Positions 20,372 through 58,720 of a stretch of 64,000 nt of DNA are shown one piece after another. Both the position numbers and the translations under genes were made by a program. Source of the DNA: an uncultured Candidatus Saccharibacteria bacterium (lineage in GTDB: Bacteria > Patescibacteriota > JAQUNI01). Where the stretch lies: the NCBI GenBank assembly GCA_964555185.1, contig CAZKRD010000001.1, forward strand, positions 303,272 through 367,271, in the 5' to 3' direction. Position 1 is the stretch's first letter. Every line of letters begins with the position of its first letter. The notes beneath the pieces were generated by a model. It worked only from the letters and a program-made list of their open reading frames with translations. It had not been told where the DNA came from and searched no databases.

Positions 20372-20417
20372 CCTGAGGACTTCGGCTGAGCTCAGTCGAA
20401 CGCCCTCGGGACGAAGG
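20372..20417 (+). repeat. 46-bp palindromic element, copy 1
   Basis: cctgaggacttcggctgagctcagtcgaacgccctcgggacgaagg. Its reverse complement matches 57257-57302 at 45 of 46 positions. It lies between murB and secA. Confidence 0.8.
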
Positions 20418-25852: not shown

Positions 25853-26926
25853 ATGGCTAAAAACCGGGGAATAAAAAAGAAGCAAGGAGCAATCAAAGGA
25901 GTGGATTTACAGTCCTTAATTTTTGAGATGTTTGCTCCTTTTCCAGAGAAAAATCAAGAGATTATCAAAAGACGGTTTGGTTTGCTTGCCGAATCCGGCG
26001 AAACCCTGGAAGCGATTGGTAAGGATTATGGAGTTACCCGGGAGCGGGTGCGCCAGATCGAAGCTTTAACCTTAAAGACCTTAAAACAGGAGAAGGGGAC
26101 TCAAGAGTTAAAGATTGTTGAGGAAATGATTATTTCTGTTTTGGTTGATATGGGGGGCGTTATTGGAGAAAGAGAATTGCTAGCAAAGCTTTTGGGAGAC
26201 GATTTTAGAAATCCTGTCTATTGCAATCTAGTTTTGTTTGTTTTGAAAATTTCAGATAAATTTTTCTTATTGCCTGAAAATGATCACTATCGCCAGGCTT
26301 GGACCACGGAGCGCGGTTTTTTCAAGAAGACAGAAGGAGTGATCGAGCTCGCTAAAGAAGTTTTAGAAAAGGTTGGCGAGCCGCTCACGATTGACGAGTT
26401 GCAGAAGGCAATTGATGTTTCCAAGATCCCGAGCAGTTTGAATGATAAGATGGTTCGCAATTACCTGGCGCTTTCAAAGGAAGTGATCCCCAACCCCTAT
26501 GGCGATTGGGGTTTGTCTGATTGGAATGAGATCAATCCGCGCGGCGTAAAAGACAGGGCCTATATTGTTTTAAAGAAAAGCGGGAAGCCTTTGCATTTTA
26601 CCCAGATTACAGAAGCGATCAATAGAAGCGGGTTAGGAACCAAACCAGCGCACGCGCCGACCGTGCACAATGAATTGATTAAAGATTCTCGTTTTATTTT
26701 AGTTGGTCGCGGTATTTACGCGCTTCGCAATTGGGGATATCAAGAAGGGACCGTGAAGGAGGTCTTGGTTGGTGTTTTAAAGAAACAAGATCAGCCGGTA
26801 AAGAGAGAGGAACTGATCAATCTTGTTTTGAAACAGCGGATCGTGCGGCGCTCTACGGTTTTACTCAATCTTCAAGATGATTCTCTTTTTGTCCAGAGCT
26901 GGAGAAATGAGATTAGTTTGAAATAG
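25853..26926 (+). CDS. DNA-binding protein with N-terminal sigma-70 region-4-like HTH (C-terminal ~250 aa unknown)
   Basis: ETLEAIGKDYGVTRERVRQIEALTLKTLKQ matches the sigma-70 r4 / LuxR-type HTH consensus. The rest of the protein has no recognisable domain. Confidence 0.5.
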   Translation: MAKNRGIKKKQGAIKGVDLQSLIFEMFAPFPEKNQEIIKRRFGLLAESGETLEAIGKDYGVTRERVRQIEALTLKTLKQEKGTQELKIVEEMIISVLVDMGGVIGERELLAKLLGDDFRNPVYCNLVLFVLKISDKFFLLPENDHYRQAWTTERGFFKKTEGVIELAKEVLEKVGEPLTIDELQKAIDVSKIPSSLNDKMVRNYLALSKEVIPNPYGDWGLSDWNEINPRGVKDRAYIVLKKSGKPLHFTQITEAINRSGLGTKPAHAPTVHNELIKDSRFILVGRGIYALRNWGYQEGTVKEVLVGVLKKQDQPVKREELINLVLKQRIVRRSTVLLNLQDDSLFVQSWRNEISLK

Positions 26927-27230
26927 AAATAGAAAGTTTAAATCCTAAATCCTAAATCCTAAATCCTAAACAATTTCCCGCCTTCGCTCACGAGCTTCGG
27001 CGGACAGGCCCGCCTTGCCCCGCTTCGCGAGGTGAGCCGCAAAGCGAGGCAGGCAAAGTTCAAATGTTCAAAACCCGGCCGTACGCCTTGGCGTAGGCAA
27101 GGATTTGTTTAGAGTTTAGGCGTTGGGATTTAGGATTTTTTGAACCTTTAAGAATCCTATTTGTTTTAGATTGGGCGGTTGTGGTATAATGTCTATAAAG
27201 ATATTGTTCAATAAATCAAAATAAAACAAA
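26927..27230 (+). repeat. Heptamer-periodic palindromic element (aatccta x4 ... tttaggatttaggatt) enclosing a GC-rich structured core
   Basis: aatcctaaatcctaaatcctaaatcctaaa ... ccgccttcgctcacgagcttcggcgg ... ggcaggcaaagttcaaatgttcaaaac ... tttagagtttaggcgttgggatttaggatt. Confidence 0.6.
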
Positions 27231-28541: not shown

Positions 28542-28689
28542 AGAGGGGGAGTAATTTTTGATTTTTAATTCTTAATTTCCCATTGAATTTTTAATAAGTT
28601 AATTTTTAATTTTTAAACATTCCATTGTCTCAAATTTATCTTGTTTGGAAACTCAATCATTAAAAATTAGAAATTGAAAATTATCATTT

Positions 28690-31004: not shown

Positions 31005-31171
31005 CTCCAATCACCAAGATACAATAACCAAGTTACAAACAATAACCAATTATCCAATCACCAATCTGCCTTGCCCCGTCTCGCCGAGGCAGACGACAGA
31101 CAGGTAACCAAACCGTTTGATTATTGGTTATTGAAATTTGTTTGTTTCTTGTTTCTTGGTTATTGGTTATT
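31005..31171 (+). repeat. ~140-bp heptamer-periodic palindromic element (word caccaataacca / tggttattggtg), copy 1, with a 40-bp GC-rich insertion
   Basis: About 85% identical to 34191-34322. The internal hairpin is caatcaccaat...aaccaaaccgtttgattattggttattg. Confidence 0.7.
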
Positions 31172-31564: not shown

Positions 31565-34190
31565 CTGCAAAGGCGCGGGTTGTTCTCAATGCGGGAACAG
31601 AGGTGTTTTTTTGCAGACAGAAAAAGGGATTTTTTATTGGGGGCCATCCCGGGAGGATCGTTATCTTCGCTGCCAGAGATTCAGTTTGATTCTAAACAAT
31701 TTTTTGGATTATTTGGTTTTGTTTTTCGGCATTGCCGCTTTGATTTACCAGGCCGTAATTTTTATTTGGGAGCGAGGGTTTTTTGCCTCTCCGCTTTTGT
31801 GGGCGGGAATTTTAGCCTTGGCTTTTGCCGGCTTTCGCTTTTCCCGCAGGAAGGAAAAGCAAAAAAGACTGAAATTTTCCAAAGAGCCTTCTCCAGAAAT
31901 TAAAGCTAAGAGTTTGAGCGGTTTGCTCCAATCCAAAGACCTTCTGGATGTCCAGCCTTTTTTAAGCCGGCCGGTCAAATTAACCCTGATCAAAGCCTGG
32001 GCCCAGGCGGGCGGCACCTTGGAGCCCTTTTTTATTTTTAAAAATCTTCTCTCCTGCCGAAAAATAGAAGAACTTATTTTGAGATTAGGTTTGGACTTTG
32101 GAGACTTAAATAAAAAATGGCGCAAGCAGACTCGCCATTTTAAAAGAGAGGCTGGAGTTGGATTTAATCTTGTTTTTAAAAAGCTTGTTTTGGAGAGCTT
32201 GGCCTTTGCCCTATTTCTAGAAAGGGAAACAATTTCGCCTTTGGAGTTTTTTCTAGGCGCGGTCAAAGCAGAGCCGAAACTGCTGGCTCTGTTTCAGGAT
32301 CAAGGTTTAGACCTAAAAGCCCTGTATTATACGGCTCAATGGATTTACAACAAAAAGGAGTTTGTCGGGAGATGGAAGAAATTCTCCGCTCGCGCCAGGT
32401 TCAAGCCAAAAGGAGTAATGAATCGGGCCTATACTTCGCGGGCAACACCGATTTTGGATAGAGTCAGTGATGACTTGACTGTCCAGGCCAGAGCGGGAGC
32501 TTTGCCTTTGCTTGTTAATCGTAAAAAAGAGATTGACGAGATTTTAGTGAATTTAAAGCAGGCAGACGGCAACGCAATTTTAGTGGGCAAACCGGGAGTG
32601 GGCAAATCCGCGATCGTTTATGGCCTTGCTAATCTGATGGCGGCAGAAGAAGTCCCCGAGATTTTGCAGGATAAACGCTTGGTCAGTTTAGATGCAGCTT
32701 CTCTGTTTTCTGTGTCAGGAGAGGGTGAGAGGCCGATTGTTATTTTAAAAAAGATTATTTCTGAAATAATCAAATCCGGCAATATTATTCTTTTTATTGA
32801 TAACATTTCTAACTTGATTGGACTGGGCCGGGGCGGCAGCGGCTTGGACGCGGCAGAGATTGTGATGCGCGTTTTGCCCAAACCCACGGTTCATGCGATT
32901 GGGATATCAACGGAAGAAGATTACCATCAGGTTTTGGAAGCAAGAGGGGATTTTACAAGAAGGTTCCAGATCATCGAAGTAGCAGAACCGGACTCTAATT
33001 TAACATTGGAAATTTTGGAAAGCAGTTCCAGTTTAATTGAATACCAGGAGAACATTTTCTTTACTTATCCTGCCCTAGATCAGGCAATTGTTTTATCCCA
33101 ACAATATATTTATGACAGTTACTTGCCAGCTAAAGCGCTGAACCTCTTGGCTGATGCCGCTTCTTTTGCTCATCGCAAAGGGAAATTAAGGGTTGTCCGC
33201 GGTGAAGATGTAGTTCGCTTAGTAGAGGAAAGGGTTAAGGTGCCGATCTCTAAAGCTACAAAAGAAGAAGGAAAAAAATTACTGCACCTAGAAGAGGAGA
33301 TGCACAAAAGAATTGTTGACCAAGAGGAAGGAGTTGGAATGGTAGCGGAAGGATTGCGCAGGGCAAGGGCGGGAATGCGGGAAAAGAAAAGGCCGATTGT
33401 TTCCCTGCTTTTTGCCGGGTCCACCGGGGTGGGTAAGACCGAGACAGCGAAAACTTTAGCCGAGATCTATTTTGGTTCGGAAGAGCGGATGATCCGCTTG
33501 GATATGAGCGAATATCAAGCCCCAGATTCGATTAATAAGCTGATTGGCGTCTCGGCAGGCCATGCCAGCGAGGGACGAGGTTATCTTACCGCGGCGGTGC
33601 GGAAGAACCCTTTTTCTTTAATTCTTTTGGATGAGCTCGAAAAAGCCCATCCTGATATTTTGAATGCTTTTCTACAGGTGGTTGAAGACGGCAGACTAAC
33701 TGATGGCCGCGGCCGGACTATTGATTTTACGAACACGATAATTATTGCTACTACTAACGCGGGAACGGATGAGATTACGCAAGCGATTAAAGGCGGCGTG
33801 AAATTAGCGCAAATCAAAAGACAGTTTATTGAGAATGTCTTGACCAAGCATTACCGTTTGGAATTTCTCAATCGTTTTGACGGTATTGTTCTCTTTAGAC
33901 CTTTAGCTCCAGAACACGTAGTTGCGATCGCTGGTCTTATGCTTGAGAAAGTGCGCAAACGACTGCTTGCCAAAAATATGCATTTTTCCTATACAAAAGA
34001 GGCGGCAGAAGACTTGGCAAAAAAGGGCTTTGATCCTGTTTTTGGCGCCAGACCCTTGCGCCGTTTGATTCAGAATACCGTGGACAATGCGCTAGCCAAA
34101 CACATTCTTTCCGGAGAACTCGGCCCTCGCGATGTCGCGGTTTTAGAAGCAGGAGGCAGAATCACAATCAAACAGGCAGAAGAAATATAG
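31527..34190 (+). CDS. ClpB/ClpC-family AAA+ chaperone with unusual N-terminal zinc ribbon and 2 TM helices
   Basis: 887 aa. N-terminal CPNCKGAGCSQCGNRG, then two hydrophobic helices. D1 P-loop LVGKPGVGKSAIVYGLA; D2 P-loop AGSTGVGKTETAKTLA with Walker B LILLDELEKAHPD and sensor GARPLRRLIQ. The D1 Walker B reads ILFIDNISNLIG, i.e. DN where DE is expected. Confidence 0.8.
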   Translation: MAFSKTRILHCPNCKGAGCSQCGNRGVFLQTEKGIFYWGPSREDRYLRCQRFSLILNNFLDYLVLFFGIAALIYQAVIFIWERGFFASPLLWAGILALAFAGFRFSRRKEKQKRLKFSKEPSPEIKAKSLSGLLQSKDLLDVQPFLSRPVKLTLIKAWAQAGGTLEPFFIFKNLLSCRKIEELILRLGLDFGDLNKKWRKQTRHFKREAGVGFNLVFKKLVLESLAFALFLERETISPLEFFLGAVKAEPKLLALFQDQGLDLKALYYTAQWIYNKKEFVGRWKKFSARARFKPKGVMNRAYTSRATPILDRVSDDLTVQARAGALPLLVNRKKEIDEILVNLKQADGNAILVGKPGVGKSAIVYGLANLMAAEEVPEILQDKRLVSLDAASLFSVSGEGERPIVILKKIISEIIKSGNIILFIDNISNLIGLGRGGSGLDAAEIVMRVLPKPTVHAIGISTEEDYHQVLEARGDFTRRFQIIEVAEPDSNLTLEILESSSSLIEYQENIFFTYPALDQAIVLSQQYIYDSYLPAKALNLLADAASFAHRKGKLRVVRGEDVVRLVEERVKVPISKATKEEGKKLLHLEEEMHKRIVDQEEGVGMVAEGLRRARAGMREKKRPIVSLLFAGSTGVGKTETAKTLAEIYFGSEERMIRLDMSEYQAPDSINKLIGVSAGHASEGRGYLTAAVRKNPFSLILLDELEKAHPDILNAFLQVVEDGRLTDGRGRTIDFTNTIIIATTNAGTDEITQAIKGGVKLAQIKRQFIENVLTKHYRLEFLNRFDGIVLFRPLAPEHVVAIAGLMLEKVRKRLLAKNMHFSYTKEAAEDLAKKGFDPVFGARPLRRLIQNTVDNALAKHILSGELGPRDVAVLEAGGRITIKQAEEI

Positions 34191-34322
34191 TTACAATCAC
34201 CAAGAAACAATAACCAAGTTACAAACAATCATCAATCATTCAATCACCAATAACCAAACCGTTTGGTTATTGGTGATTGGTTATTGAAATTTGTTTGTAC
34301 CTTGTTTCTTGGTTATTGGTTC
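34191..34322 (+). repeat. ~140-bp heptamer-periodic palindromic element, copy 2 (direct repeat of 31005-31171)
   Basis: caatcaccaataaccaaaccgtttggttattggtgattg is a perfect 17-bp inverted repeat. The two copies flank the small-membrane-protein plus ClpB/C-like module. Confidence 0.7.
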
Positions 34323-34463
34323 TTCTTTGCTATTTGACCTGATTTTTTTTACTTTAAACTTTGACATAAATGAAGATTTAGAGTTATAATATTCTCTTGC
34401 TCTTTTTTTAAAAAACAAAGATCACAACCACAACAACCCTTAGTTAGATAGAGGAGGTCTTAA

Positions 34464-35020: not shown

Positions 35021-36112
35021 ATGATCAAAGATCACAAAAAAGCAATTGTTTTAATGTCTGGCGGAATTGATTCTTCGGTGGCAGCGGTCTTACTTCAAAA
35101 ACAAGGTTTTGACCTAACTGGTATTTTTATTATCTTCGGCAATCAAAATGATAGAATCAGCAAAGAAAACAAATGCTGCAGCATTGAGGCCCAGGATTCA
35201 GCGCGGCGCGTGGCCGGAAAATTGAACATTCCTTTTTATACAATCAATTTGGCCAAAGAATTTAAAGCGCGAGTGATTGATTATTTCATCTCCGAATACA
35301 AAAAAGGACGCACGCCTAACCCGTGCGTTATGTGCAACAAGTTTATGAAATTTGGTTTAATGCTGGATAAAGCTCTGAGTTTAGGGTTTGATTATGTGTC
35401 CACCGGCCACTACTTGATAAGTGCAAAGTGCAAAGTGCAAAGTGCAAAGTTATTTAAATTATTCCAAGCTAAAGACAGAGTAAAAGACCAATCATACTTT
35501 TTATATACCCTCACCCAAAAAAAGTTGAAGCATTTGTTGTTTCCAGTTGGTGATTATGTTAAAGACGAGATTAGGGACTTGGCAAAAAAGTTCGATCTGC
35601 CAGTCTTGGAACGCAAAGAGAGCCAAGGGGTTTGTTTTGTCGGCGATGAGAGCGTTGTTGATTTTTTAAAAAAGAAGATCAAGGTTGAACCCGGCGAGAT
35701 TGTTGATATTAATACAAAAAAAGCGGTAGGCGAGCATAGTGGTTTGTCCTTTTATACGATCGGCCAGCGCCAGGGGATCGGCGTGGGCGGAATTGGACCC
35801 TATTATGTCGTAAGCCTTGATTTTAAAAGGAATAAGCTGTGGGTTACAAATAAAGCAGGGGATCCGCTTTTGTTTGGAAAAGGGTTTATTGTCAGAGATT
35901 TAAGCTGGGTCGCGGGCAAAAAACCAAAACTGCCTTTTCCCTGCCGGGTTAGAATCAGATACGGTCATCCGAGTCAAAAAGCAGAACTTAAAGCTTCAAA
36001 CAAAGCAAGGATCAGAGTTGAATTCTGTAAAGCCCAGAGAGCGATCACGCCTGGCCAAGCCGCTGTTTTTTATAATAAGAAAGAACTCCTGGGAGGCGGG
36101 ATCATTGTTTAG
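35021..36112 (+). CDS. mnmA: tRNA-specific 2-thiouridylase MnmA
   Basis: PP-loop AIVLMSGGIDSSVAAVLL, plus CNKFMKF and KDQSYFLY motifs. The track start at 34985 is TTG, so the ATG at 35021 is used. A 4x heptamer repeat lies inside the variable loop. Confidence 0.85.
   Translation: MIKDHKKAIVLMSGGIDSSVAAVLLQKQGFDLTGIFIIFGNQNDRISKENKCCSIEAQDSARRVAGKLNIPFYTINLAKEFKARVIDYFISEYKKGRTPNPCVMCNKFMKFGLMLDKALSLGFDYVSTGHYLISAKCKVQSAKLFKLFQAKDRVKDQSYFLYTLTQKKLKHLLFPVGDYVKDEIRDLAKKFDLPVLERKESQGVCFVGDESVVDFLKKKIKVEPGEIVDINTKKAVGEHSGLSFYTIGQRQGIGVGGIGPYYVVSLDFKRNKLWVTNKAGDPLLFGKGFIVRDLSWVAGKKPKLPFPCRVRIRYGHPSQKAELKASNKARIRVEFCKAQRAITPGQAAVFYNKKELLGGGIIV
35421..35450 (+). repeat. In-frame heptamer tandem repeat (agtgcaa x4) inside mnmA
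   Basis: agtgcaaagtgcaaagtgcaaagtgcaaag encodes SAKCKVQSAK in the variable loop before the conserved KDQSYFLY. Confidence 0.7.
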
Positions 36113-36167: not shown

Positions 36168-36473
36168 ATGGCAAATGTGACAGCTCAGCTTGATAAAGAA
36201 ATTTTAAATTTAGGACAGGAAAGACAGAACAAACATCGATTGAAATTAGAGTTCGAGCGGGACATCGCTGATTTAGGGAGGAAAATTGAAGAAAACAGGA
36301 AGAAATATGAGGAGGAAATGAAAAAAGCGGAATCAAAACTGCGAAGAGAGAGAAAGGACTTGGAGCGGGATTTAGACAAAATAGTGAGAGAGATTAGAGG
36401 GATGGATCGTGAAATTGAAAACTTAGCTCAAAAATTAAGGGATTTTCCCAAGGGACACAATGGAATCTTCTGA
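36168..36473 (+). CDS. Small coiled-coil protein (hypothetical)
   Basis: 101 aa, highly charged K/E/R heptads. The stop overlaps the alaS start. Confidence 0.35.
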   Translation: MANVTAQLDKEILNLGQERQNKHRLKLEFERDIADLGRKIEENRKKYEEEMKKAESKLRRERKDLERDLDKIVREIRGMDREIENLAQKLRDFPKGHNGIF

Positions 36474-38373
36474 GCTGAAAAAAAAGTTTTTGCGTTTTTT
36501 TAGAAATAAGGGTCATGTGATCATCCCCTCGGCTTCTTTGATTCCAGAGCATGATCCGAGTGTTTTGTTCACAAGCGCGGGAATGCATCCTTTAGTTCCC
36601 TATCTTTTGGGCGAACCGCATCCGGAAGGCCGGAAATTAACTGACGTTCAAAAATGCGTTCGGACGGGCGACATTGACGTTGTGGGTGATGCCTGGCATT
36701 TGACTTTTTTTGAGATGCTCGGGAATTGGAGCCTTGGTGACTATTTTAAAGAAGAGGCAATTGTAATGGCTTGGGAGTTTTTAACCTCTCAAAAGTGGCT
36801 GGGCCTTGATCCGGAAAGGCTTTCTGTTTCTGTTTTTGCAGGTGACAACGATGCTCCGCGCGATAATGAAGCGGCCAAGATTTGGCAAAAGGTCGGCATG
36901 CCAAAAAAGAGAATCTATTATTACCCCAAATCTGAAAATTGGTGGGGTCCAGCCGGCAAGATTGGGCCTTGCGGTCCGGATACGGAAATATTTTTCGACA
37001 GTGGGAAAGAGCCTTGCGGAGAAAAGTGCGAACCCAAATGTATTTGTGACAAATACACCGAGATCTGGAATTTGGTTTTTATGCAATACGATAAAAAGAT
37101 CAAAGATCAACCTTCGAGTCCTGAGCCTCAGGTCGAGGGAAAATCAAAGATCAAAAATGCAAATCAAAGATCAAAAATGCAAGAAATTAAGACTATTTAT
37201 GAATATGTTCCGCTTAACCAGAAGAACATTGATACAGGAATGGGGCTTGAGCGGACAATCGCGATTTTAAACGGAAAAGATAATATTTATCAGACCGATT
37301 TATTTAAACCCTTGATTGATAAGCTCACAGAGCTTTTAGAGGGCCGGATAATAAAAAAAGACAGCGAGGATTTAAGGTCGATGCGGATTATTGCCGACCA
37401 TATCCGCGCCGCGGTTTTTATTTTAGCCGAAGGGATCACCCCTTCCAACCTTGATCAGGGCTATGTTTTGCGCCGTTTAATCCGAAGAGCAATCAGAAAA
37501 ACAAGCTCGCTTAAACTGGAGAAAGGATCTCTTTTAAAACTTGCCAAGATTGTGATTGATCAATACAAACAGGATTATTCAAGGCTCTTTGAGAACAAAG
37601 ATTTTATTCGCAAGGAGCTTTCCCGCGAGGAGGAGAAGTTTAAGAAGCCGCTAAAATGGGTGGAGCAGTATCGGAGCGATCTTCGCGAAGCGATAGAGCA
37701 TGATCTGATTAAGAAAATCAAAGATGCGCCGATCCTCTCGGCTTCCGGCGAGGCTTCCGGCCAGTATGTTTATGAAAATTATCAGACCTACGGCGTGCCT
37801 CCTGATTTGAGCGAGGAGATAATTCGCGAGCTTGGTTTGAAATACAACAAGCGGGAATTTGAGCGAGCTTTTAAAAAACACCAGGCCCTTTCACGGAAAG
37901 GGAGCGCGGAGAAATTTCAAGGCGGGCTTGCTGACGCCAAAGAAGCGACAATCAAATACCACACCGCGACCCATCTTTTGCATCAAGCGCTTCGTCAGGT
38001 CTTGGGAGATCATGTGGAACAGCGAGGGAGCAATATTACGGCCGAGCGCTTGCGCTTTGACTTCTCCCATCCCAAGAAAGTGGAAGCAGAAGAACTAAAA
38101 GAAGTAGAAGAGATTGTGAACAAAAAGATTAAAGAGAAACTTTCCATCAAATGCGAAGAGATGAGCCCGGAAGAAGCAAAAAAGCAGGGTGCGATAGGAC
38201 TCTTTGGCCGCAAATACGGCGATAAAATCAAGGTTTACACAATAGGAGAGTTCTCTAAAGAAATCTGCGGCGGCCCGCATATCAAAAACACCAAGGAACT
38301 TGGCAAATTCAAAATCATCAAAGAAGAATCCTCCTCCGCAGGCATCCGCAGAATCAAAGCGACTTTAGAATAA
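36460..38373 (+). CDS. alaS: Alanine--tRNA ligase (short form, no C-terminal C-Ala/DHHA1 domain)
   Basis: Class II catalytic core FTSAGMHPLVPYLLG and WHLTFFEMLGNWSLGDYFK, IDTGMGLER, and the editing-domain HTATHLLHQAL motif. 637 aa, versus about 870 for a full-length AlaS. It contains an in-frame repeat-derived insertion at 37097-37185. Confidence 0.85.
   Translation: MESSELKKKFLRFFRNKGHVIIPSASLIPEHDPSVLFTSAGMHPLVPYLLGEPHPEGRKLTDVQKCVRTGDIDVVGDAWHLTFFEMLGNWSLGDYFKEEAIVMAWEFLTSQKWLGLDPERLSVSVFAGDNDAPRDNEAAKIWQKVGMPKKRIYYYPKSENWWGPAGKIGPCGPDTEIFFDSGKEPCGEKCEPKCICDKYTEIWNLVFMQYDKKIKDQPSSPEPQVEGKSKIKNANQRSKMQEIKTIYEYVPLNQKNIDTGMGLERTIAILNGKDNIYQTDLFKPLIDKLTELLEGRIIKKDSEDLRSMRIIADHIRAAVFILAEGITPSNLDQGYVLRRLIRRAIRKTSSLKLEKGSLLKLAKIVIDQYKQDYSRLFENKDFIRKELSREEEKFKKPLKWVEQYRSDLREAIEHDLIKKIKDAPILSASGEASGQYVYENYQTYGVPPDLSEEIIRELGLKYNKREFERAFKKHQALSRKGSAEKFQGGLADAKEATIKYHTATHLLHQALRQVLGDHVEQRGSNITAERLRFDFSHPKKVEAEELKEVEEIVNKKIKEKLSIKCEEMSPEEAKKQGAIGLFGRKYGDKIKVYTIGEFSKEICGGPHIKNTKELGKFKIIKEESSSAGIRRIKATLE
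37141..37180 (+). repeat. In-frame 20-bp tandem duplication (aaatcaaagatcaaaaatgc x2) inside alaS
   Basis: Part of an insertion of about 90 bp (37097-37185) that encodes ...QPSSPEPQVEGKSKIKNANQRSKMQEIK... in the AlaS loop preceding IDTGMGLER. Confidence 0.7.
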
Positions 38374-38505: not shown

Positions 38506-38515
38506 CAAAGGTGAT

Positions 38516-38588
38516 GATCAAGTCTTGCTTTTTGGTATTTTAAGAAAAACTAAAACATCAAAATATAAGATTTGATCTCATTTATCCT
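38516..38588 (+). repeat. Island repeat family A, copy 1 (immediately 3' of tRNA-Pro)
   Basis: gatcaagtcttgctttttggtattttaagaaaaactaaaacatcaaaatataagatttgatctcatttatcc. Related copies start at 41545, 45031 and 51906, with a partial copy at 46001. Confidence 0.6.
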
Positions 38589-41544: not shown

Positions 41545-41632
41545 AATTGATGGTCAAATTTTACTTTCTGACATTTTAAGAAAGATTAAAACATCAAAAT
41601 ACAAAATTTAAGCCTATTTATCTGGCCCCATT
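41545..41632 (+). repeat. Island repeat family A, copy 2
   Basis: aattgatggtcaaatttt...cattttaagaaagattaaaacatcaaaatacaaaatttaagcctatttatc. It shares the gattgatggtcaa prefix with copy 4 and starts 6 nt after the DUF2075 stop. Confidence 0.55.
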
Positions 41633-41781: not shown

Positions 41782-41810
41782 AAAAAAACAGAGTCGACCC
41801 CATTTTGCAC
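41782..41810 (+). repeat. Repeat family C motif AAAAAACAGAGTCGACCCCATTTTGCAC, copy 1
   Basis: Related copies start at 44390, 45004, 47440 and 54951; a degenerate second copy lies at 41820-41845. Confidence 0.55.
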
Positions 41811-41927
41811 TAGCTAGGGAAAAACAGAGCCGGTCCCATTTCATCAATTTGGTGCGGGGGGAGGTGAGATCTAGGGTTGGAATCTCCAAAAATGTTATAA
41901 TAAAGATAAGTTTTTCAATAAATAAGC

Positions 41928-41987
41928 AAAAATGGGGTTAGGTCTTGAATAGTGAATTGTTAAAATCAGAAATGTCTCCATTTTTTT
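41928..41987 (+). repeat. MITE-like element family B, copy 1 (forward, 3' truncated)
   Basis: aaaaatggggttaggtcttgaatagtgaattgttaaaatcagaaatgtctccattttttt. Inverted termini: AAAAATGGGG / CTCCATTTTT. Confidence 0.6.
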
Positions 41988-41999
41988 AAAAATTTCGTT

Positions 42000-42377
42000 A
42001 TGATACAAATTGATACAATTTATAATCGTTATGGAGAACCGAGATTGCGATTACGCAGCAATGGTCGTTTGGTTGATTTTTCTGGACGAAATATCGGATT
42101 TTTAAGTGGAGATAATCTTTATAATGATGAAGGTCGCCATGTTGGTTGGTATGAAGGAGGTATAATGAGAGATCATGGGGGTTTTTGTACGGGCTTCGGG
42201 GAAAATGTGACTGACCAACTTCATCCCCTGCTTCCTGTGCGACAATTGAAGCCTGTTCCAGCTTTACCCCGATTCGAGCCGTTAAGACCCCCAAAGCGTT
42301 TATCCCCATTAAAGCCTTACAAATCTTTTAGATGGTCAAACTTCGACCCGATAGATTTGTTTTTAATGTATGAATAA
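42000..42377 (+). CDS. Hypothetical protein (internal GR.IGFLSGDNLYNDEGRHVGWYEGG repeat-like segment)
   Basis: 125 aa, no recognisable family. It overlaps the next ORF by 8 nt. Confidence 0.35.
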   Translation: MIQIDTIYNRYGEPRLRLRSNGRLVDFSGRNIGFLSGDNLYNDEGRHVGWYEGGIMRDHGGFCTGFGENVTDQLHPLLPVRQLKPVPALPRFEPLRPPKRLSPLKPYKSFRWSNFDPIDLFLMYE

Positions 42378-42801
42378 TATAAGCAAAAAAGGTGAGGGTA
42401 ATAGAAACCAAATCAGCTCAAAGAGTGCCAAGCCCGAACTATCTTTAGGTTATACACAAAGAGATTTAAAAAACCCTGGTGTTGCAAAGGGAATATTGGC
42501 AGAAAATCAAAGGCTCCAAGGAGAGGCAAATCAACTGAAGAAGTCATTAAGGTTAACACAGGACAGTTTTGAGAAGTTAAGGCAAAAATATCATACCAGA
42601 GATAAAGAAAATGCAGTAATGAAAGAGAAGTACTCACTTCTTTCGAGGTTTGAAATTATAAAGTCACTTTCTTTAATCGGCGTTGGTTCGGCGATTTCAT
42701 TTTTAATAGATAAAAAATATTTAACAGCGGCGGCGACTGGTATTATATCATTCATTCTATTGCTAGTTGTAACACGTAAAGATACTAAGGTAAAAAGATA
42801 A
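42370..42801 (+). CDS. Hypothetical coiled-coil protein with C-terminal TM helix
   Basis: 143 aa; coiled-coil segment then a hydrophobic tail LIGVGSAISFLI...IISFILLLVV. Confidence 0.35.
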   Translation: MNNISKKGEGNRNQISSKSAKPELSLGYTQRDLKNPGVAKGILAENQRLQGEANQLKKSLRLTQDSFEKLRQKYHTRDKENAVMKEKYSLLSRFEIIKSLSLIGVGSAISFLIDKKYLTAAATGIISFILLLVVTRKDTKVKR

Positions 42802-42821
42802 TCTTCTATTGCATTTGAGGG

Positions 42822-42878
42822 GAAATGGGATCAGGTCTTGAATAGTGAATTGTTAAAATCAGAAACGTCCCCGTTTTT
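42822..42878 (+). repeat. MITE-like element family B, copy 2 (forward)
   Basis: ggaaatgggatcaggtcttgaatagtgaattgttaaaatcagaaacgtccccgttttt. Confidence 0.6.
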
Positions 42879-42916
42879 CTTAGCCCTAAAGTTTTAATTG
42901 CGAAATATATTCTCGT

Positions 42917-43390
42917 ATGAAAAAATCAACTATTGATTTATGTGTTTGCATGATACTTTTTAACAAAAAATTTGAATTTTTGCTTGTTAAAAAGTTTCAT
43001 GAAACTGAAAAGATAGGAGGTCTTTGGGTTCTTCCGGGCGGAGGCGGCGGTTTTGCCGATGCCAGAAGTTTTTCAGCTTTGGCAAAGCAAGAGGTGGAGT
43101 ATGATTTGAATGAAAATTATAATAAAAATAAAAAGAAAGGTCAATGGATTAACTTTGAGGTTGAGGAGGGCGCTATTAAAATTTTCAAGACTCAACCTAG
43201 CGAAAAAAAAATTATAATTTATACTTACTGCAACAATTACGAAGGGACTCCCACTCCGAATAATAAGGATATAATAGACTTTCGTTGGTTTCCTATTAAG
43301 AAGATTCGGGAGTTTGGCATGGTTGGGAAAATCGCTTACGGAAATCATTTAGTGATTTATGATTTTTATAGAAAATTTATAGAAATTTAA
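42917..43390 (+). CDS. NUDIX-fold-like protein with degenerate Nudix box (possibly inactive)
   Basis: 157 aa. GGLWVLPGGGGGFADARSFSALAKQEVEYDL resembles the Nudix box GX5EX7REUXEEXGU, but the catalytic E and R are replaced. Confidence 0.35.
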   Translation: MKKSTIDLCVCMILFNKKFEFLLVKKFHETEKIGGLWVLPGGGGGFADARSFSALAKQEVEYDLNENYNKNKKKGQWINFEVEEGAIKIFKTQPSEKKIIIYTYCNNYEGTPTPNNKDIIDFRWFPIKKIREFGMVGKIAYGNHLVIYDFYRKFIEI

Positions 43391-43401
43391 GATGAGAAAT
43401 C

Positions 43402-43436
43402 AAATGGGGACGTTTCTGATTTATTTGGTACAGGTC
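43402..43436 (-). repeat. MITE-like element family B, copy 3 (reverse orientation, partial)
   Basis: aaatggggacgtttctgatttatttggtacaggtc. Confidence 0.4.
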
Positions 43437-43482
43437 GGAAGATCAGAATCAACTAAGATGAAATGAATCAAAAAATTAATCT

Positions 43483-44247
43483 ATGACCAAGCAACCGGCA
43501 CTGGTGGGGATTGTGCCGAGAAAAAATCTCTGGGATGTGATTTGCGAGAAAAGATGGTATCACATCCCGGTGAAGTCGGCTCCCGACAATGTTTCTCTCG
43601 CGGAATTTATCGCCTTTTATTTTCCTAAAATATTCGGCGAAGAGGAAAGATACAAGGTGAATCATTATGCCCAGGTGCGGGCAGTGGATATTGTTAAGAG
43701 AGTCAAGCTTTTCCCAGGGGAGCCAAAACACAAAGGGGCGCATGAAGATTACTTTCAATTTCATCTTGGGGAGATTAAGAGATTGCCGCATCCCATCCCC
43801 AGTAAGAGATGGAGAAGAATTGTTCATATTCCCACCAGTCGTCAAAAATTATTCAGCGCGGAAGAGATTAATGATCTTTACGACACCAGCCCCTTGGAAG
43901 AAAAAGTGTACCGGGAAATGAAGAGACGGCGCATAGACGCCGAAAGACAGGTGTTTGTCCAAGTCGCAGGCCGGGTGTACTGCCTAGACTTTGGAATCTT
44001 TTGTCGCAATGGCGACATAGATGTTGAATGTGATGGTGAGAAATACCATATTTTACCTGATGCCTTAACCAGGGACAGAGAGCGCAACAATCAATTAACC
44101 AGCTTTGGCTGGCATGTTTTGAGGTTTTCGGGAAAAGAAATCAACTGGACTCTGGCAAATTGCTTCAAAGTTATTGAGAAAACGATTAGTAATCTGGGTG
44201 GACTGAGGCAAAAGCTTGATAAGTCGGTTAGTATGTTGTTAAGTTAA
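43483..44247 (+). CDS. Protein with C-terminal DUF559 (Vsr/PD-(D/E)xK-like endonuclease) domain
   Basis: The C-terminus YCLDFGIFCRNGDIDVECDGEKYHILPDALTRDRERNNQLTSFGWHVLRFSGKEI matches the DUF559 pattern D...E.DG..H...D..R...L...GW.VLRF. The N-terminal ~150 aa are unknown. Confidence 0.55.
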   Translation: MTKQPALVGIVPRKNLWDVICEKRWYHIPVKSAPDNVSLAEFIAFYFPKIFGEEERYKVNHYAQVRAVDIVKRVKLFPGEPKHKGAHEDYFQFHLGEIKRLPHPIPSKRWRRIVHIPTSRQKLFSAEEINDLYDTSPLEEKVYREMKRRRIDAERQVFVQVAGRVYCLDFGIFCRNGDIDVECDGEKYHILPDALTRDRERNNQLTSFGWHVLRFSGKEINWTLANCFKVIEKTISNLGGLRQKLDKSVSMLLS

Positions 44248-44283
44248 AACAATGGGTATATTATAAAAAATTAAGGGAATACG

Positions 44284-44364
44284 GGGGCAGGTTTTGTATT
44301 TTGGAAAAAATGGAGACGTTTCTGATTTATTTTTGCTAAATTCACTATTGTATGACCTGACCCC
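44284..44364 (-). repeat. MITE-like element family B, copy 4 (reverse orientation, full length ~81 bp, TIR GGGGYCAGGT/GACCTGACCCC)
   Basis: gggggcaggttttgtattttggaaaaaatggagacgtttctgatttatttttgctaaattcactattgtatgacctgacccc. Confidence 0.65.
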
Positions 44365-44389
44365 GTTTGTTGACCCCATTTGTATCCAT

Positions 44390-44417
44390 AAAAAAACAGA
44401 CTCGACCTCATTTTCCC
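44390..44417 (+). repeat. Repeat family C, copy 2
   Basis: aaaaaaacagactcgacctcattttccc, 40 nt upstream of the GNAT start. Confidence 0.5.
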
Positions 44418-45003: not shown

Positions 45004-45031
45004 AAAAAACAGAGTCGACCCCATTTTGCAC
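45004..45031 (+). repeat. Repeat family C, copy 3
   Basis: aaaaaacagagtcgaccccattttgcac, 35 nt after the GNAT stop. Confidence 0.55.
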
Positions 45032-45094
45032 TTGTTTTGCGGCATTTTAAGAAAACTGAAAACATCAAAATACAAAATTTGATCCCATTTACAT
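45031..45094 (+). repeat. Island repeat family A, copy 3 (fused to a family C motif)
   Basis: cttgttttgcggcattttaagaaaactgaaaacatcaaaatacaaaatttgatcccatttaca. Confidence 0.55.
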
Positions 45095-51905: not shown

Positions 51906-51968
51906 ATTGATGGTCAAGCCTTGCTTTTTGGCATTTCGAAAAAAACTAAAACATCAAAATCAAAGCGC
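51906..51968 (+). repeat. Island repeat family A, copy 4 (candidate distal boundary of the island)
   Basis: gattgatggtcaagccttgctttttggcatttcgaaaaaaactaaaacatcaaaatcaaagcgc. About 44 of 50 positions match copy 1. Confidence 0.55.
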
Positions 51969-52065
51969 TTTTTTTATTTGACGAAAGTCTTTTTTATTTA
52001 TATTATTCAGATAGATGGTTTTCCAAAAATTTAAATAAATACAAAAACAATTTAATCAAAAATTC

Positions 52066-57162: not shown

Positions 57163-57256
57163 GGTTAAACTTTACAAACCTATAGAGCTCATATTGTTTT
57201 TAACTTTCAGAGAATAATTGAGCTTTTTTTATACTTTTGAAAAATTAAAAAATAAA

Positions 57257-57302
57257 CCTTCGTCCCGAGGGCGTTCGACTGAGCTCAGCCGAAGTCTTCA
57301 GG
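57257..57302 (-). repeat. 46-bp palindromic element, copy 2 (inverted orientation)
   Basis: On the + strand it reads ccttcgtcccgagggcgttcgactgagctcagccgaagtcttcagg, with the internal near-palindrome CTTCGGCTGAGCTCAGCCGAAG. It lies upstream of ftsA. Confidence 0.8.
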
Positions 57303-57457
57303 TCGAGGAAAATTCAATAAAAATTAAAAAATAAGAAATAAACAAAAAATAAGAAATAAAAAACAAAAAACACTCCCTATTATTTGCCAAACTGAAACAA
57401 AAGTTGTAAAATGATCATAGAAGCGCTGTTTTTACAGTATTGTTTTTGGTTATCAAT

Positions 57458-58720
57458 ATGGGATTATTTTCAAAATTAAAAAACAAAAAAAATAAAGGTA
57501 ATTCTGCGTTTGCTTTGGATATTGGTACGGCCGTGGTCAAAGCTTTAATTTTCCGGATTGATGAAAAAGAGGGCAAGGGTTATATTTTAGGCGTGGGTCG
57601 GGCCAATCAGGCGTTAGGAGATATGCAGTCGGGTGCGGTTACGGACATTGCCGGCGTGGTTGCGACTTGCGAGAAAGCAATTAAGGCGGCAACAGATGAG
57701 GCTCATTTCCGGCCGACCCAGGTTATTTTAGGTATTGCTGGCGAGTTGGTCAAAGGTTCAACCACCATGGTTCATTATGAACGTTTAAAACCCAAGACCA
57801 AGATTGATCTGCCCGAACTTAAGAACATTCTCCATAAGGTGCAATGGAAGGCTTTTGACAAAGTCAGAAAACAGTTGGCCTGGGAGACCGGTCATTCCGA
57901 GATTGATGTCAAGTTGATTAACGCGGCAATCGTGGATGTCCGGATTGACGGCTACCGGGTGACTAATCCTTTGGGCTTTCAGGGTAAGGATGTTTCGATC
58001 GGGATTTTTAATGCCTACGCCCCTCTTGTGCATTTGGGCGCTTTGCAAACAATCGCTTCGGAATTGGATTTGGATCTCCTTTCGATTGCAGCCGAACCTT
58101 ATGCTGTGGCGCGGGCCACGGGTCTAGAAGACGCTCCGGAGTTTTCGGCTATTTTTATTGATGTTGGCGGAGGCACCACCGATATCGCGGTCGTGCGCAA
58201 CGGCGGGGTGGAGGGGACAAAGATGTTCGCTTTGGGCGGGCGCGCTTTCACAAAGAGAATCGCTTCTGATTTGGGTGTTAGTCTGGCAGAGGCCGAGGAA
58301 ATGAAGATCAAATATTCTCGCAGCCAACTGCCAGAAGCAAAACTTGCCAAGATTAAAGAGTCCTTAACCGGTGATGTGCGGGTTTGGATTTCAGGATTAG
58401 AGCTTGCTCTCTCTGAATTTACGGAATCTGATTTGCTGCCTTCGCGGATTCTGCTTTGCGGCGGCGGTTCTTTATTGCCTGGAATTCAAGCCGCGCTTCT
58501 CAATCCGATTTGGGTTGAAAATTTGCCTTTTGCTAAGAACCCGCAAGTGAGTTTTATTAAACCAGAGGAGGTGGTTGATATCATTGATCAAACAAAGAAG
58601 TTAACCCAACCCCAGGATATTACACCAATGGCCTTGGCCAATCTCGCTATTGATTTGGCTGGACAAGAGAGGGTGGTGGGTAAAATTTTGAGAAGAGTGG
58701 TTCGGATGATGCAGACTTAG
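57458..58720 (+). CDS. ftsA: Actin-like ATPase, FtsA-like cell-division protein
   Basis: FALDIGTAVVKALIF (phosphate 1) and FIDVGGGTTDIAVV (phosphate 2), about 420 aa. The track start at 57440 is TTG, so the ATG at 57458 is used. A PilM-like identity cannot be excluded. Confidence 0.6.
   Translation: MGLFSKLKNKKNKGNSAFALDIGTAVVKALIFRIDEKEGKGYILGVGRANQALGDMQSGAVTDIAGVVATCEKAIKAATDEAHFRPTQVILGIAGELVKGSTTMVHYERLKPKTKIDLPELKNILHKVQWKAFDKVRKQLAWETGHSEIDVKLINAAIVDVRIDGYRVTNPLGFQGKDVSIGIFNAYAPLVHLGALQTIASELDLDLLSIAAEPYAVARATGLEDAPEFSAIFIDVGGGTTDIAVVRNGGVEGTKMFALGGRAFTKRIASDLGVSLAEAEEMKIKYSRSQLPEAKLAKIKESLTGDVRVWISGLELALSEFTESDLLPSRILLCGGGSLLPGIQAALLNPIWVENLPFAKNPQVSFIKPEEVVDIIDQTKKLTQPQDITPMALANLAIDLAGQERVVGKILRRVVRMMQT

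What the first reader, a model, noticed from the sequence alone, without database searches (positions are those of the whole stretch)
37097..37185. A repeat-element-derived insertion sits in frame inside alaS, and its core resembles the 46-bp palindromic element found at 20372 and 57257
alaS carries gatcaaccttcgagtcctgagcctcaggtcgagggaaaatcaaagatcaaaaatgcaaatcaaagatcaaaaatgcaag. The segment ccttcg-agtc-ctgagc-c-tcaggtcgagg-gaaaat parallels ccttcg...cgact-gagctcagccgaagtc-ttcaggtcgagg-aaaat from 57257-57311; tcaggtcgagg(g)aaaat is shared at 16 of 17 positions. The next 40 bp are a 2 x 20-bp tandem of an aaatcaaaatgca-type heptamer word. The insertion adds about 30 aa (QPSSPEPQVEGKSKIKNANQRSKMQEIK) in the loop before the conserved IDTGMGLER motif without breaking the frame. 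A non-coding repeat element that has colonised an essential aminoacyl-tRNA synthetase gene and been retained as a surface loop is unusual. It also argues that these elements are mobile or expandable rather than static regulatory sites.
Basis: partly seen in the sequence, partly recalled or inferred. Interest (0 to 1): 0.7.

Follow-up and report, generated by a model that had tools for sequence, protein, structure and literature searches.

The report
Mobile mini-palindrome translated inside alaS
The alanyl-tRNA synthetase gene of this small-genome (CPR/Patescibacteria-type) bacterium carries, in frame, a copy of a tiny dispersed palindromic repeat that also sits in frame in another tRNA enzyme gene of the same genome and between genes. 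A roughly 90% identical relative lacks it, so it is a case of 'selfish DNA translated inside essential proteins', known so far mainly from Rickettsia.

Summary
alaS (36460-38373) carries a 96-bp module (37096-37191). It consists of AAAGATC-type heptamers, a 30-bp GC-rich imperfect palindrome (37111-37140) and a perfect 2x20-bp tandem. The net gain is 31 codons over the closest orthologue (about 90% DNA identity) and over 108 of 120 homologues. The module lies at the tip of the beta-hairpin before class II motif 3 and is predicted disordered.

The palindrome is a dispersed repeat. Stretches of 29-54 nt identical to the alaS copy occur in frame in miaB of the same genome, in frame in mnmA of a distant CPR organism (46% protein identity), and in two intergenic sites.

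The similarity to the 46-bp element is significant (0 of 200 shuffles). The alaS core is the short form of the same family. The long forms (window 57257 and 20372, and a third copy upstream of dnaE) equal the short form plus a 26-nt palindromic centre.

At all three sites that can be compared, the relative lacks the element. One is a clean empty site with no target duplication. The element is therefore mobile or recently lost.

It works like Rickettsia palindromic elements but is much smaller, nested and embedded in heptamer arrays. How it moves is unresolved.

The parts
36460..38373 (+). alaS, a short CPR-type alanyl-tRNA synthetase (637 aa) and host gene of the insert
   Evidence: ORF. Pfam tRNA-synt_2c (E 7.7e-122) and tRNA_SAD. 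PDB AlaRS matches. An identical protein, P0001, sits on a 706,972-bp scaffold.
37096..37191 (+). Inserted repeat module, 96 bp or 32 codons (KIKDQPSSPEPQVEGKSKIKNANQRSKMQEIK). It is absent from the closest orthologue.
   Evidence: DNA and protein alignments with L001/P0002. 84 nt at 89% identity to the miaB module of the same genome. Open in only 2 of 6 frames. Residues 218-243 have pLDDT below 50 between strands 199-214 and 247-262.
37095..37110 (+). Left arm: AAAGATC heptamer repeat (x2.3)
   Evidence: TRF. The same 9-12 nt flank the core in L021 and in miaB.
37111..37140 (+). 30-bp GC-rich imperfect palindrome CCTTCGAGTCCTGAGCCTCAGGTCGAGGGA (PSSPEPQVEG). This is the short form of the palindromic element family.
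   Evidence: RNA hairpin of -16.2 kcal/mol, z -2.3. The exact 24-mer occurs in 4 other metagenome contigs. The family alignment A6 contains short and long forms.
37141..37182 (+). Right arm: perfect tandem, 2.1 x 20 bp (AAATCAAAGATCAAAAATGC), itself built of AAAnATC-type heptamers
   Evidence: TRF period 20, 100% matches, score 84. Without the second unit the module would be 76 bp, not a multiple of 3 (arithmetic).
37192..37209 (+). Remodelled returning strand of the hairpin (TIYEYV, replacing canonical TTEGKFE). The YEYVPL motif is shared with other insert-bearing CPR AlaRS.
   Evidence: Alignments
57257..57308 (+). Intergenic long-form copy of the same family (52 nt). It has the outer arms CCTTCG..TCC / GGTCGAGG plus the 26-nt centre.
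   Evidence: RNA hairpin of -25.1 kcal/mol, z -3.1.
20372..20417 (-). Intergenic long-form copy (46 nt), nearly identical to the 57257 copy over 50 nt
   Evidence: RNA hairpin of -26.1 kcal/mol.
35419..35450 (+). A second in-frame heptamer array (AAGTGCA x4.6) in the neighbouring gene mnmA. At the same loop the relative L001 carries heptamers plus a different GC-rich palindrome, and the distant CPR contig L022 carries the alaS-type core.
   Evidence: TRF..

Best explanation
What it is. The segment 37096-37191 of alaS is a translated copy of a small, dispersed, non-autonomous repeat. The repeat is a 30-bp GC-rich imperfect palindrome embedded in A-rich heptamer repeats of the AAAGATC/AAAAATC type.

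What is shown:
- The same core, sharing 29-54 nt of exact identity with the alaS copy, occurs at other loci. One is in frame in miaB of the same genome. One is in frame in mnmA of a distant CPR bacterium. Others are intergenic.
- Long forms (46-56 nt) in intergenic DNA equal the short form plus a 26-nt palindromic centre.
- At all three sites that can be compared, a ~90% identical relative lacks the element. One of these is a clean empty site inside a heptamer array, with no target-site duplication.
- The alaS copy sits at the tip of the beta-hairpin preceding class II motif 3 (GMGLER).

What is inferred:
- The module is translated into a 32-residue Lys/Pro/Ser/Glu-rich disordered loop. It is tolerated rather than required, because most AlaRS lack it.
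- What we see in coding DNA is the product of a filter. Only the A-rich strand and 2 of 6 frames are stop-free. Only the 30-bp short form keeps the reading frame.
- Most likely mechanism of spread: insertion without target duplication of a hairpin-forming unit into A-rich heptamer arrays, which act as landing pads.
- For the alaS copy specifically, I favour templated copying from a similar array such as the miaB module. This would be ectopic gene conversion or microhomology-mediated template switching, followed by a 20-bp tandem duplication that brings the module to a multiple of three.
- A trans-acting, structure-specific nuclease or transposase remains a serious alternative. A small GIY-YIG enzyme is the lead.
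For: - The insert is absent from the closest orthologue, a net +93 bp. 108 of 120 homologues have the canonical loop.
- The exact 24-mer of the core occurs in 4 other contigs. Exact shared stretches with the alaS copy are 54, 51, 37 and 29 nt.
- The miaB copy lies on the same 706,972-bp scaffold. It is a 20-residue insert relative to solved MiaB 7MJV.
- The mnmA host in L022 is only 46% identical to the window's MnmA.
- Family alignment of 5 short and 3 long forms. The similarity is significant: 0 of 200 shuffles.
- Filled versus empty site upstream of dnaE: 56 nt inserted in TTTGATTTT^TGAGATTTGA, with no duplication.
- No copy of the arms or the centre is found in 37 kb of the relative, against 5 copies in 85 kb of the source genome.
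- Other GC-rich palindromes show the same behaviour. L001 mnmA has one in frame. Intergenic cores are polymorphic between the two genomes. The P0014 alaS loop has AAAAGTC heptamers plus a perfect palindrome. The relative's miaB loop has a different small hairpin.
- Structure model: the insert lies between long strands 199-214 and 247-262, and residues 218-243 have pLDDT below 50.
- Frame filter.
- Precedent for in-frame palindromic repeats: Rickettsia palindromic elements (RPEs) (PMC10969869, read).
Against: - The alaS difference from the relative is a replacement, about 21 bp by about 114 bp, not a clean insertion. The polarity (gain here versus loss in the relative) and the number of steps are therefore not proven.
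- The next sister AlaRS (P0003) and several other CPR AlaRS carry Lys-rich extensions ending in YEYVPL at the same loop. This allows an older loop extension that the relative lost.
- Translation and tolerance are inferred from the open frame and the model only. The model is of moderate quality (mean pLDDT 75.9).
- No mobilising enzyme was found in the 85 kb of the genome that could be read.
- Only one assembly supports the alaS copy itself.
- Copy number is low: 5 copies in 85 kb read. Only 3 candidate proteins in 5.8 billion share words with the module peptide.
Confidence: 0.85

Rival explanations
1. Ancestral loop, lost in the relative. The extended Lys-rich loop, possibly with the core, is old in this CPR clade. 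The closest orthologue reverted to the canonical short loop by deletion or by recombination with a canonical allele. On this reading nothing was inserted into alaS recently.
For: - Insert-bearing AlaRS (P0003, P0004, P0008, P0009, P0013, P0014, P0107) share K(I/V)K...YEYVPL at this loop.
- With the core removed, the window loop aligns without gaps to the P0008 loop, 21 of 30 residues identical.
- P0003, sister to the pair, has a 9-residue extension.
- Identity to L001 dips to 0.68-0.78 around the insert, against about 0.9 elsewhere.
Against: - P0002 has a fully canonical loop (TTEGKFEPL), as do 108 of 120 homologues. A deletion would not regenerate this.
- The relative also lacks the element at the two other comparable sites, and has no family copy in 37 kb.
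- The core is 100% identical to the miaB copy, which indicates a recent copy, not an old loop.
- The flank downstream of the insert is still closest to P0002.
Confidence: 0.1
2. In situ slippage only. The loop grew by replication slippage of Lys codons into heptamer arrays. The palindrome is a local by-product, for example of template switching, and no dispersed element is involved.
For: - There is a perfect 20-bp tandem and there are heptamer repeats in the insert.
- Heptamer arrays with lineage-specific units occur at the same alaS, mnmA and miaB loops in different CPR lineages.
Against: - Stretches of 29-54 nt containing the palindrome, identical to the alaS copy, occur at four other loci, including another gene of the same genome and a distant organism.
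- Long forms with the same arms occur elsewhere.
- Slippage can explain the arms but not the core.
Confidence: 0.03
3. Adaptive appendage. The Lys-rich module is retained because it adds non-specific tRNA affinity to tRNA-binding enzymes, as Lys-rich appended segments do in some eukaryotic synthetases. The repeat origin would then be secondary to its function.
For: - All three in-frame hosts of the short form are tRNA-binding enzymes: AlaRS, MiaB and MnmA.
- Lys-rich heptamer-coded inserts recur at the same loops in many CPR lineages.
- The role of Lys-rich appendages in eukaryotic aaRS rests on general knowledge, not tested here.
Against: - There are only three cases.
- The closest relative and most homologues do without the insert.
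- The core encodes an acidic, Pro-rich peptide, not a basic one.
- The same family is also intergenic.
- No structural evidence shows that the loop faces the tRNA.
Confidence: 0.15
4. Artefact. The module in alaS is an assembly error, for example a repeat-induced chimera or a mis-collapsed tandem.
For: - The alaS copy is supported only by one scaffold, deposited at both ENA and NCBI.
- The exact 24-mer scan found SDBT01 contigs for the other copies but none for alaS.
Against: - The module is in frame and stop-free inside an otherwise intact essential gene.
- The sister copy in miaB is found in two assemblies, the scaffold and SDBT01100505.
- The analogous in-frame copy in L022 comes from an unrelated JGI data set.
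Confidence: 0.03

Closest known systems
Rickettsia palindromic elements (RPEs): selfish palindromic repeats inserted in frame in protein-coding genes (Ogata et al. 2000, as summarised in PMC10969869)
   Same: - A dispersed palindromic repeat occurs both between genes and in frame inside unrelated housekeeping genes.
- It is translated as an extra peptide segment compatible with the fold.
- It occurs in a reduced genome.
- It shows presence/absence differences between relatives.
   Different: - RPEs are about 100-150 bp. Here the core is 30 bp (46-56 bp in the long form), and about 96 bp with the arms.
- Here the element is nested, with short and long forms.
- It is embedded in heptamer arrays.
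- No sequence relationship to RPEs was examined or is claimed.
- The host is a CPR bacterium.
- The 24-nt centre of the long form is found exactly in many phyla.
REP/BIME elements with RAYT transposases, and IS200/IS605-derived palindrome-associated elements
   Same: - A short (20-40 nt) GC-rich imperfect palindrome.
- No target-site duplication at the one filled/empty pair.
- Hairpin-forming single strands are plausible substrates.
   Different: - REPs are extragenic. Here 3 of 5 short copies are in frame in genes.
- No conserved GTAG-type head.
- No RAYT or TnpA gene was seen in the 85 kb available.
- The insertion context is A-rich heptamer arrays rather than a defined tetra- or pentanucleotide.
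GC clusters of yeast mitochondrial DNA, including the optional in-frame clusters of VAR1, and hairpin elements of other mitochondria (PMC4464245, PMC8811140 and PMC2800124; listed, not read in detail)
   Same: - Short GC-rich palindromes scattered in A+T-rich spacers.
- They are optional between strains.
- They are occasionally carried in frame in a protein gene.
   Different: - Organellar rather than bacterial.
- No heptamer arms.
- No cross-lineage sharing of identical units is known to me.
Heptanucleotide tandem repeats of bacteria: cyanobacterial STRR repeats and TAACTGA repeats of Beggiatoaceae (PMC4679880 and PMC4692102; listed)
   Same: - Abundant 7-nt tandem arrays, mostly intergenic and often forming hairpins with an inverted array.
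- Some window units (TTGGTTA, CAATCAC) resemble STRR units as I recall them.
   Different: - Those arrays are not known as carriers of GC-rich palindromes.
- They are not known as in-frame loops of synthetases.
- The relationship was not tested here.

Membership tests
RPE-like in-frame palindromic repeats (functional class) | Repeat present at several unrelated loci of the genome | tested here: met
   alaS, miaB, upstream of dnaE, and window 57257 and 20372. L020 and L021 probably come from the same population.
RPE-like in-frame palindromic repeats (functional class) | Copies inserted in frame in protein-coding genes without disrupting them | tested here: met
   The reading frame stays open through the copies in alaS, miaB and mnmA. 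Pfam domains are intact on both sides.
RPE-like in-frame palindromic repeats (functional class) | Insert lies at the protein surface or in a loop, compatible with the fold | tested here: met
   The insert is at the tip of the hairpin between strands 199-214 and 247-262, with pLDDT below 50. It falls in gaps opposite solved AlaRS and MiaB. This rests on a model only, not an experiment.
Rickettsia RPE families proper | Element of about 100-150 bp belonging to one of the described RPE sequence families of Rickettsia | tested here: not met
   The core is 30 bp, the long forms 46-56 bp and the module 96 bp. The host is a CPR bacterium. No sequence comparison with RPE consensus sequences could be run.
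MITE | Terminal inverted repeats plus a target-site duplication | tested here: not met
   The whole unit is a palindrome. The one clean filled/empty pair (L027 2162-2217 versus L029 about 2880) shows no duplication.
REP/RAYT | Extragenic location and an associated RAYT (Y1 transposase) gene | tested here: inconclusive
   The location is not exclusively extragenic. No transposase was found among the ORFs scanned. Only 85 kb of 707 kb could be read.
IS200/IS605-type hairpin elements | Insertion without duplication, 3' of a fixed 4-5-nt target | tested here: inconclusive
   There is no duplication. The left flank is ATCAA in 4 copies but TTCAA, GTAAA, ATAAA and CTAAA in the others. No tnpA gene was seen.
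Class II aminoacyl-tRNA synthetase AlaRS (host gene) | Catalytic domain with motif 3 GMGLER, plus the editing-related second additional domain | tested here: met
   Pfam PF01411 and PF07973. A. aeolicus and E. coli AlaRS structures match at E about 1e-80. The C-terminal C-Ala domain is absent, as in other CPR AlaRS of 580-640 aa.

The most novel reading that the evidence does not exclude
The alaS insert may be the visible tip of a cross-phylum class of nested hairpin mini-elements of 24-56 nt that leave no target duplication. On this reading:
- they insert at the apex of existing palindromes or into A-rich heptamer arrays;
- they spread horizontally between distant lineages;
- they are mobilised in trans by small GIY-YIG nucleases;
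- they are routinely translated inside essential proteins.

Leads:
- The 24-nt centre of the long form occurs exactly in 15 stretches from Patescibacteria, Bacteroidota, Planctomycetota, Chloroflexota, Deltaproteobacteria and others. It is mostly inside long ORFs.
- In hsdR of one MAG contig, inverted copies of about 45 nt flank an in-frame GIY-YIG cassette. The homologous hsdR of a second MAG shows the same short/long dimorphism.
Probability: 0.2. Interest if true: 0.85.

Novelty: new variant of a known kind. Interest (0 to 1): 0.7.

Why it matters
- It extends the Rickettsia paradigm of selfish palindromic DNA translated inside essential proteins to the Candidate Phyla Radiation, a very different group that also has reduced genomes.
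- The element is several times smaller than RPEs and has an unusual two-level architecture: heptamer arrays as landing pads, and GC-rich hairpins nested inside one another.
- It gives a concrete explanation for the odd Lys-rich or GC-rich lineage-specific insertions that clutter alignments of CPR proteins. It warns that such insertions are not phylogenetic characters.
- It provides a filled/empty-site pair between close relatives, from which the insertion mechanism can be studied.
- If the cross-phylum centre and its link to GIY-YIG cassettes hold up, it points to an undescribed, very widespread type of mobile DNA.

Tried and rejected
- Rfam: no family matches the elements. The whole window at gathering threshold gives only tRNA-Pro. 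Region 57200-57400 at E up to 10 gives only noise.
- Peptide census of the module. HMMER against 1.84 billion representatives gave nothing. The query is too short and of low complexity.
- Viral contigs: no exact match of either 24-mer. No evidence for a phage vector.
- Recombination patch from a foreign alaS allele. Identity to L001 dips around the insert. However, the downstream flank is still closest to P0002 among the available sequences. Not supported, not excluded.
- alaS-specific regulatory hairpin or tRNA-Ala mimic. Rejected because the same unit sits in miaB, mnmA and intergenic DNA, and its U.G pair is in the wrong orientation for a G3:U70 mimic (reasoning).
- Literature search for peptide words of such repeats and for CPR intragenic repeats found nothing relevant.
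- A scan of the window for GC-rich stable hairpins was too noisy to serve as a census. It did reveal the in-frame palindrome at 59330-59390.
- No transposase or GIY-YIG gene was found among the ORFs scanned in 41.9-51.3 kb or by tblastn.
Full report
**The object**

The window is a 42% G+C stretch. Almost all genes are on the + strand and GC skew is positive throughout. The ORF 36460-38373 is a 637-aa alanyl-tRNA synthetase of the short type. It matches Pfam tRNA-synt_2c and tRNA_SAD, and the A. aeolicus, E. coli and human AlaRS catalytic fragments at E 1e-81 to 1e-63.

Its best database relatives are annotated as Patescibacteria, Parcubacteria or Doudnabacteria. An identical protein lies on a 706,972-bp scaffold, ENA ERZ23486238 BAEC19-1_SAMN10404973_METAG-scaffold_1.

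**Checking the observation**

The quoted sequence is there. Its parts are:
- AAAGATC x 2.3 at 37095-37110;
- the imperfect palindrome CCTTCGAGTCCTGAGCCTCAGGTCGAGGGA at 37111-37140;
- a perfect 20-bp x 2.1 tandem at 37141-37182.

As RNA the palindrome folds into a 7+5-bp hairpin of -16.2 kcal/mol, z = -2.3.

Against A. aeolicus AlaRS the extra residues fall between positions 203 and 210. This is the turn of the beta-hairpin that precedes PLP..DTGMGLER, class II motif 3 (the motif assignment comes from general knowledge of class II synthetases).

The closest orthologue is P0002, 86-91% identical in protein and about 86-89% in DNA. It lies on the syntenic locus L001 (mnmA, a 101-aa ORF, alaS, radC, mazG, helicase). 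It has the canonical loop DKTTEGKFEPLKQKN, so the window has a net 93 extra bp, or 31 codons. Of 120 homologues, 108 have the canonical 15-residue loop.

An AlphaFold2 model (mean pLDDT 75.9) places the insert between two long strands, 199-214 and 247-262. Residues 218-243 score below 50, so the loop is probably disordered.

**Is it related to the 46-bp element?**

Shuffled cores reach that score somewhere in the window in 8 of 60 trials. Against the two element copies only, 0 of 2000 do. The matched stretch partly lies in the flank of copy 57257.

An alignment that allows one long gap is much clearer. The 36-nt core plus flanks scores 38 on copy 57257 and 32 on copy 20372. The next best place in the window scores 24. 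No shuffle of 200 reaches 38 (mean 26.3, sd 2.1).

The alignment is colinear at both ends with a single 26-nt gap:
- alaS: AACCTTCGAGTCCTGAG / CCTCAGGTCGAGGGAAAAT
- 57257: AACCTTC--GTCCCGAG [26 nt] TCTTCAGGTCGA-GGAAAAT

**The core is a dispersed repeat**

An exact 24-mer of the alaS core (CGAGTCCTGAGCCTCAGGTCGAGG) occurs in four other metagenome contigs. The contexts are unrelated:
- L021: intergenic, right after a stop codon. It shares 54 identical nt with alaS, including AAAGATCAA on the left and AAAATCAAAGATCAAA on the right.
- L020: intergenic, 37 identical nt.
- L023: in frame in a MiaB-type methylthiotransferase (SYCGKIKDQPSSPEPQVEGKSKVKMKNQNSKINFAELL). It shares 51 identical nt, and 84 nt at 89% identity. 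This is a 20-residue insert relative to solved MiaB 7MJV.
- L022: in frame in MnmA, at the GHYAR..KDQSYFL loop (KPSSPEPQVEGN), 29 identical nt.

The L023 MiaB is 100% identical to P0121, which sits on the window's own 706,972-bp scaffold at about 159 kb (locus L027). The source genome therefore has at least two in-frame copies, in alaS and in miaB.

L022 is a distant organism. Its MnmA is 46% identical to the window's.

All three coding copies have the same orientation and frame. The module is stop-free in only 2 of 6 frames, both on the A-rich strand.

**Short and long forms are one family**

In L027, upstream of dnaE, a 56-nt unit has exactly the alaS arms and a 26-nt palindromic centre:

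CCTTCGAGTCC-CGAGGGACTTCGACTGAGCTCAGCCGAAGTCCTTA-GGTCGAGGGA

Its flanks are the same as those of the short copies (..TTTCAA / AAAATCAAAGAT). It therefore links the alaS core to the window's two "46-bp" elements.

The multiple alignment of five short and three long copies shows one family differing by the 26-nt centre. The long forms are 46, 52 and 56 nt long. None is a multiple of three, and all are intergenic. The 30-nt short form is the one found in genes.

**Mobility**

The relative genome is represented by L001 and L029, both from JGI sample 3300033148. They are about 90% identical and syntenic to the window and to L027. That they come from one organism is an inference. This genome lacks the element at all three comparable sites:
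- alaS has the canonical loop.
- The miaB loop has heptamers plus a different small hairpin, ACCTCGCCTACCGAGAGGCAGGC.
- The dnaE-upstream site is cleanly empty. It reads TTTGATTTT^TGAGATTTGATTTTTG, against TTTGATTTT[56 nt]TTGAAATTTGATTTTTG in the source genome. There is no target duplication.

No arm or centre of the family occurs in the 37 kb of the relative. There are five copies in 85 kb of the source genome.

**The wider pattern**

The genome is full of 7-nt tandem arrays. They are mostly intergenic and are often paired with their inverse to form long hairpins, for example at 31007-31166, 34199-34320, 62180-62306, 8352-8468 and 9330-9480. Some have GC-rich cores at the apex, as at 26920-27140.

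Between the window and L001 the GC-rich cores come and go:
- window only: 27005-27049 and 31079-31097;
- L001 only: 11847-11896, and 8934-8987 in frame in mnmA (RLSLRAEPSRARRS). At that spot the window has (AAGTGCA) x 4.6.

Other CPR AlaRS carry heptamer-coded Lys-rich inserts at the same loop:
- P0008: (AAAAATC)n, giving KIKNQKSKIKITNQNSKIDEI.
- P0004: (AGAATCA)4 at this loop, and a second (AAAAATC)n module in another loop.
- P0014: (AAAAGTC)n around a perfect palindrome, CCCCGCACCGAAACGAAGTTTCTGGTGCGGGG.

With the 30-bp core removed, the window loop aligns without gaps to that of P0008, with 21 of 30 residues identical. An NJ tree shows a patchy distribution of loop lengths.

The general picture is heptamer arrays that recur at a few tolerant loops and in spacers, with GC-rich hairpins that insert into them.

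**Mechanism**

Shown:
- copy number;
- identity between copies;
- nesting of short and long forms;
- presence/absence between relatives;
- absence of target duplication at one site;
- the frame filter.

Inferred:
- The module is translated and tolerated.
- Insertion prefers A-rich heptamer arrays.
- The alaS copy arose by templated copying from a similar array such as the miaB module. Two observations support this. Identity is perfect in the core and decays at variable points in the arms. And the alaS change is a replacement of about 21 bp by about 114 bp, not a clean insertion.
- The very recent, perfect 20-bp duplication may have brought the module from 76 to 96 bp, a multiple of three.

A trans-acting structure-specific enzyme is the main alternative. 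None was found in the parts of the genome that could be read.

**Comparison with known systems**

The behaviour matches Rickettsia palindromic elements: dispersed palindromic repeats that insert in frame into unrelated housekeeping genes and are compatible with the fold (PMC10969869). It is not a member of those families. It differs in size, host and architecture.

REP/RAYT elements, IS200/IS605-derived hairpin elements and MITEs share single features, but defining features are unmet or untestable here. Yeast mitochondrial GC clusters are a good analogy: optional GC-rich palindromes in A+T-rich spacers, sometimes in frame in VAR1 (papers listed). I found no paper describing such elements in CPR bacteria.

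**Verdict**

It is a new variant of a known kind of phenomenon, with an open and potentially much broader question attached. That question concerns the cross-phylum 24-nt centre and its association with GIY-YIG cassettes.

Noticed in passing
window 57271-57294 (+) and 20380-20403 (-); loci L005-L019: The 24-nt centre of the long-form element (GCGTTCGACTGAGCTCAGCCGAAG) occurs exactly in 15 stretches of GTDB species-representative genomes. They come from very different phyla: Patescibacteria, Bacteroidota, Planctomycetota, Chloroflexota, Deltaproteobacteria, Calditrichaceae and others, with locus G+C from 0.34 to 0.65. In most of them the 24-mer lies inside a long open frame, read as ..EPSAELSRTP.. 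or ..GVRLSSAEG... Hosts include hsdR, hsdM, hsdS, ftsA and an O-antigen ligase/TPR protein.
   Followed up: partly
L006 317-745 and L015 about 1760-2160: In hsdR of a Saprospiraceae MAG contig, a ~144-aa in-frame insert holds a small GIY-YIG (UPF0213/YhbQ-like) domain. Inverted ~45-nt copies of the palindrome containing the 24-mer flank it on both sides. The homologous hsdR of a Calditrichaceae MAG has a short-form left repeat (no centre) and a long-form right repeat. This makes a GIY-YIG nuclease a possible autonomous partner of these palindromes.
   Followed up: partly
window 59330-59390 (in CDS 58851-60590); window 26976-27050; L001 11847-11896: A third GC-rich palindrome family (CCCGCCTACGCCAAGGCTTCGGCGGGCAGGCC) sits in frame, as RPDRPAYAKASAGRP, in a Lys-rich linker of a 579-aa membrane-anchored protein. 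Similar intergenic copies exist. One of them is present only in the relative, just downstream of alaS.
   Followed up: partly
window 35419-35450 (mnmA); L001 8901-9038; L025 1352-1453; L003 3879-3980: The GHY..KDQSYF loop of MnmA carries lineage-specific in-frame heptamer arrays in four CPR lineages: AAGTGCA, AAAAGTC, GCGAAAA/GTGAAAA, and one with an added GC-rich palindrome. In L025 the same heptamer unit (AAAAGTC) is used in both the mnmA and alaS loops of one organism.
   Followed up: partly
window 31007-31166, 34188-34324, 62180-62306, 8352-8468, 9330-9480, 28553-28675, 58709-58849, 61185-61249, 26920-27140: Most intergenic spacers hold long hairpins made of a heptamer array and its inverted copy. 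Some have a GC-rich core at the apex. Array length and cores differ between the window and its ~90% identical relative. Their function (terminator, RNA stability or none) was not examined.
   Followed up: no
window about 41806-44417 and repeats at 41783, 44391, 45004, 47440; 38512-38586, 41548-41622, 45019-45093, 51908-51982: About 2.6 kb is present in the window but not in L001. It encodes a beta-flower protein, a NUDIX protein and a DUF559/Vsr-like endonuclease. It is bounded by direct repeats (AAAAAACAGAGTCGACCCCATTTTGCACT). A separate 75-nt repeat family follows several genes. This looks like a small variable island.
   Followed up: no
L027 9535-9778 (source genome, upstream of miaB): A perfect 27-nt tandem repeat (CTAGAAGCTTTCGCGACCAAAAAGGAC) is interrupted by a run of N, an assembly gap. 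The whole ~500-bp stretch is absent from the relative.
   Followed up: no
window 37060-37300: DNA identity to the relative's alaS drops to 0.68-0.78 around and just downstream of the insert, against about 0.9 elsewhere. The differences are mostly synonymous. This could be a conversion tract or locally raised mutation. The available homologues do not identify a donor.
   Followed up: partly
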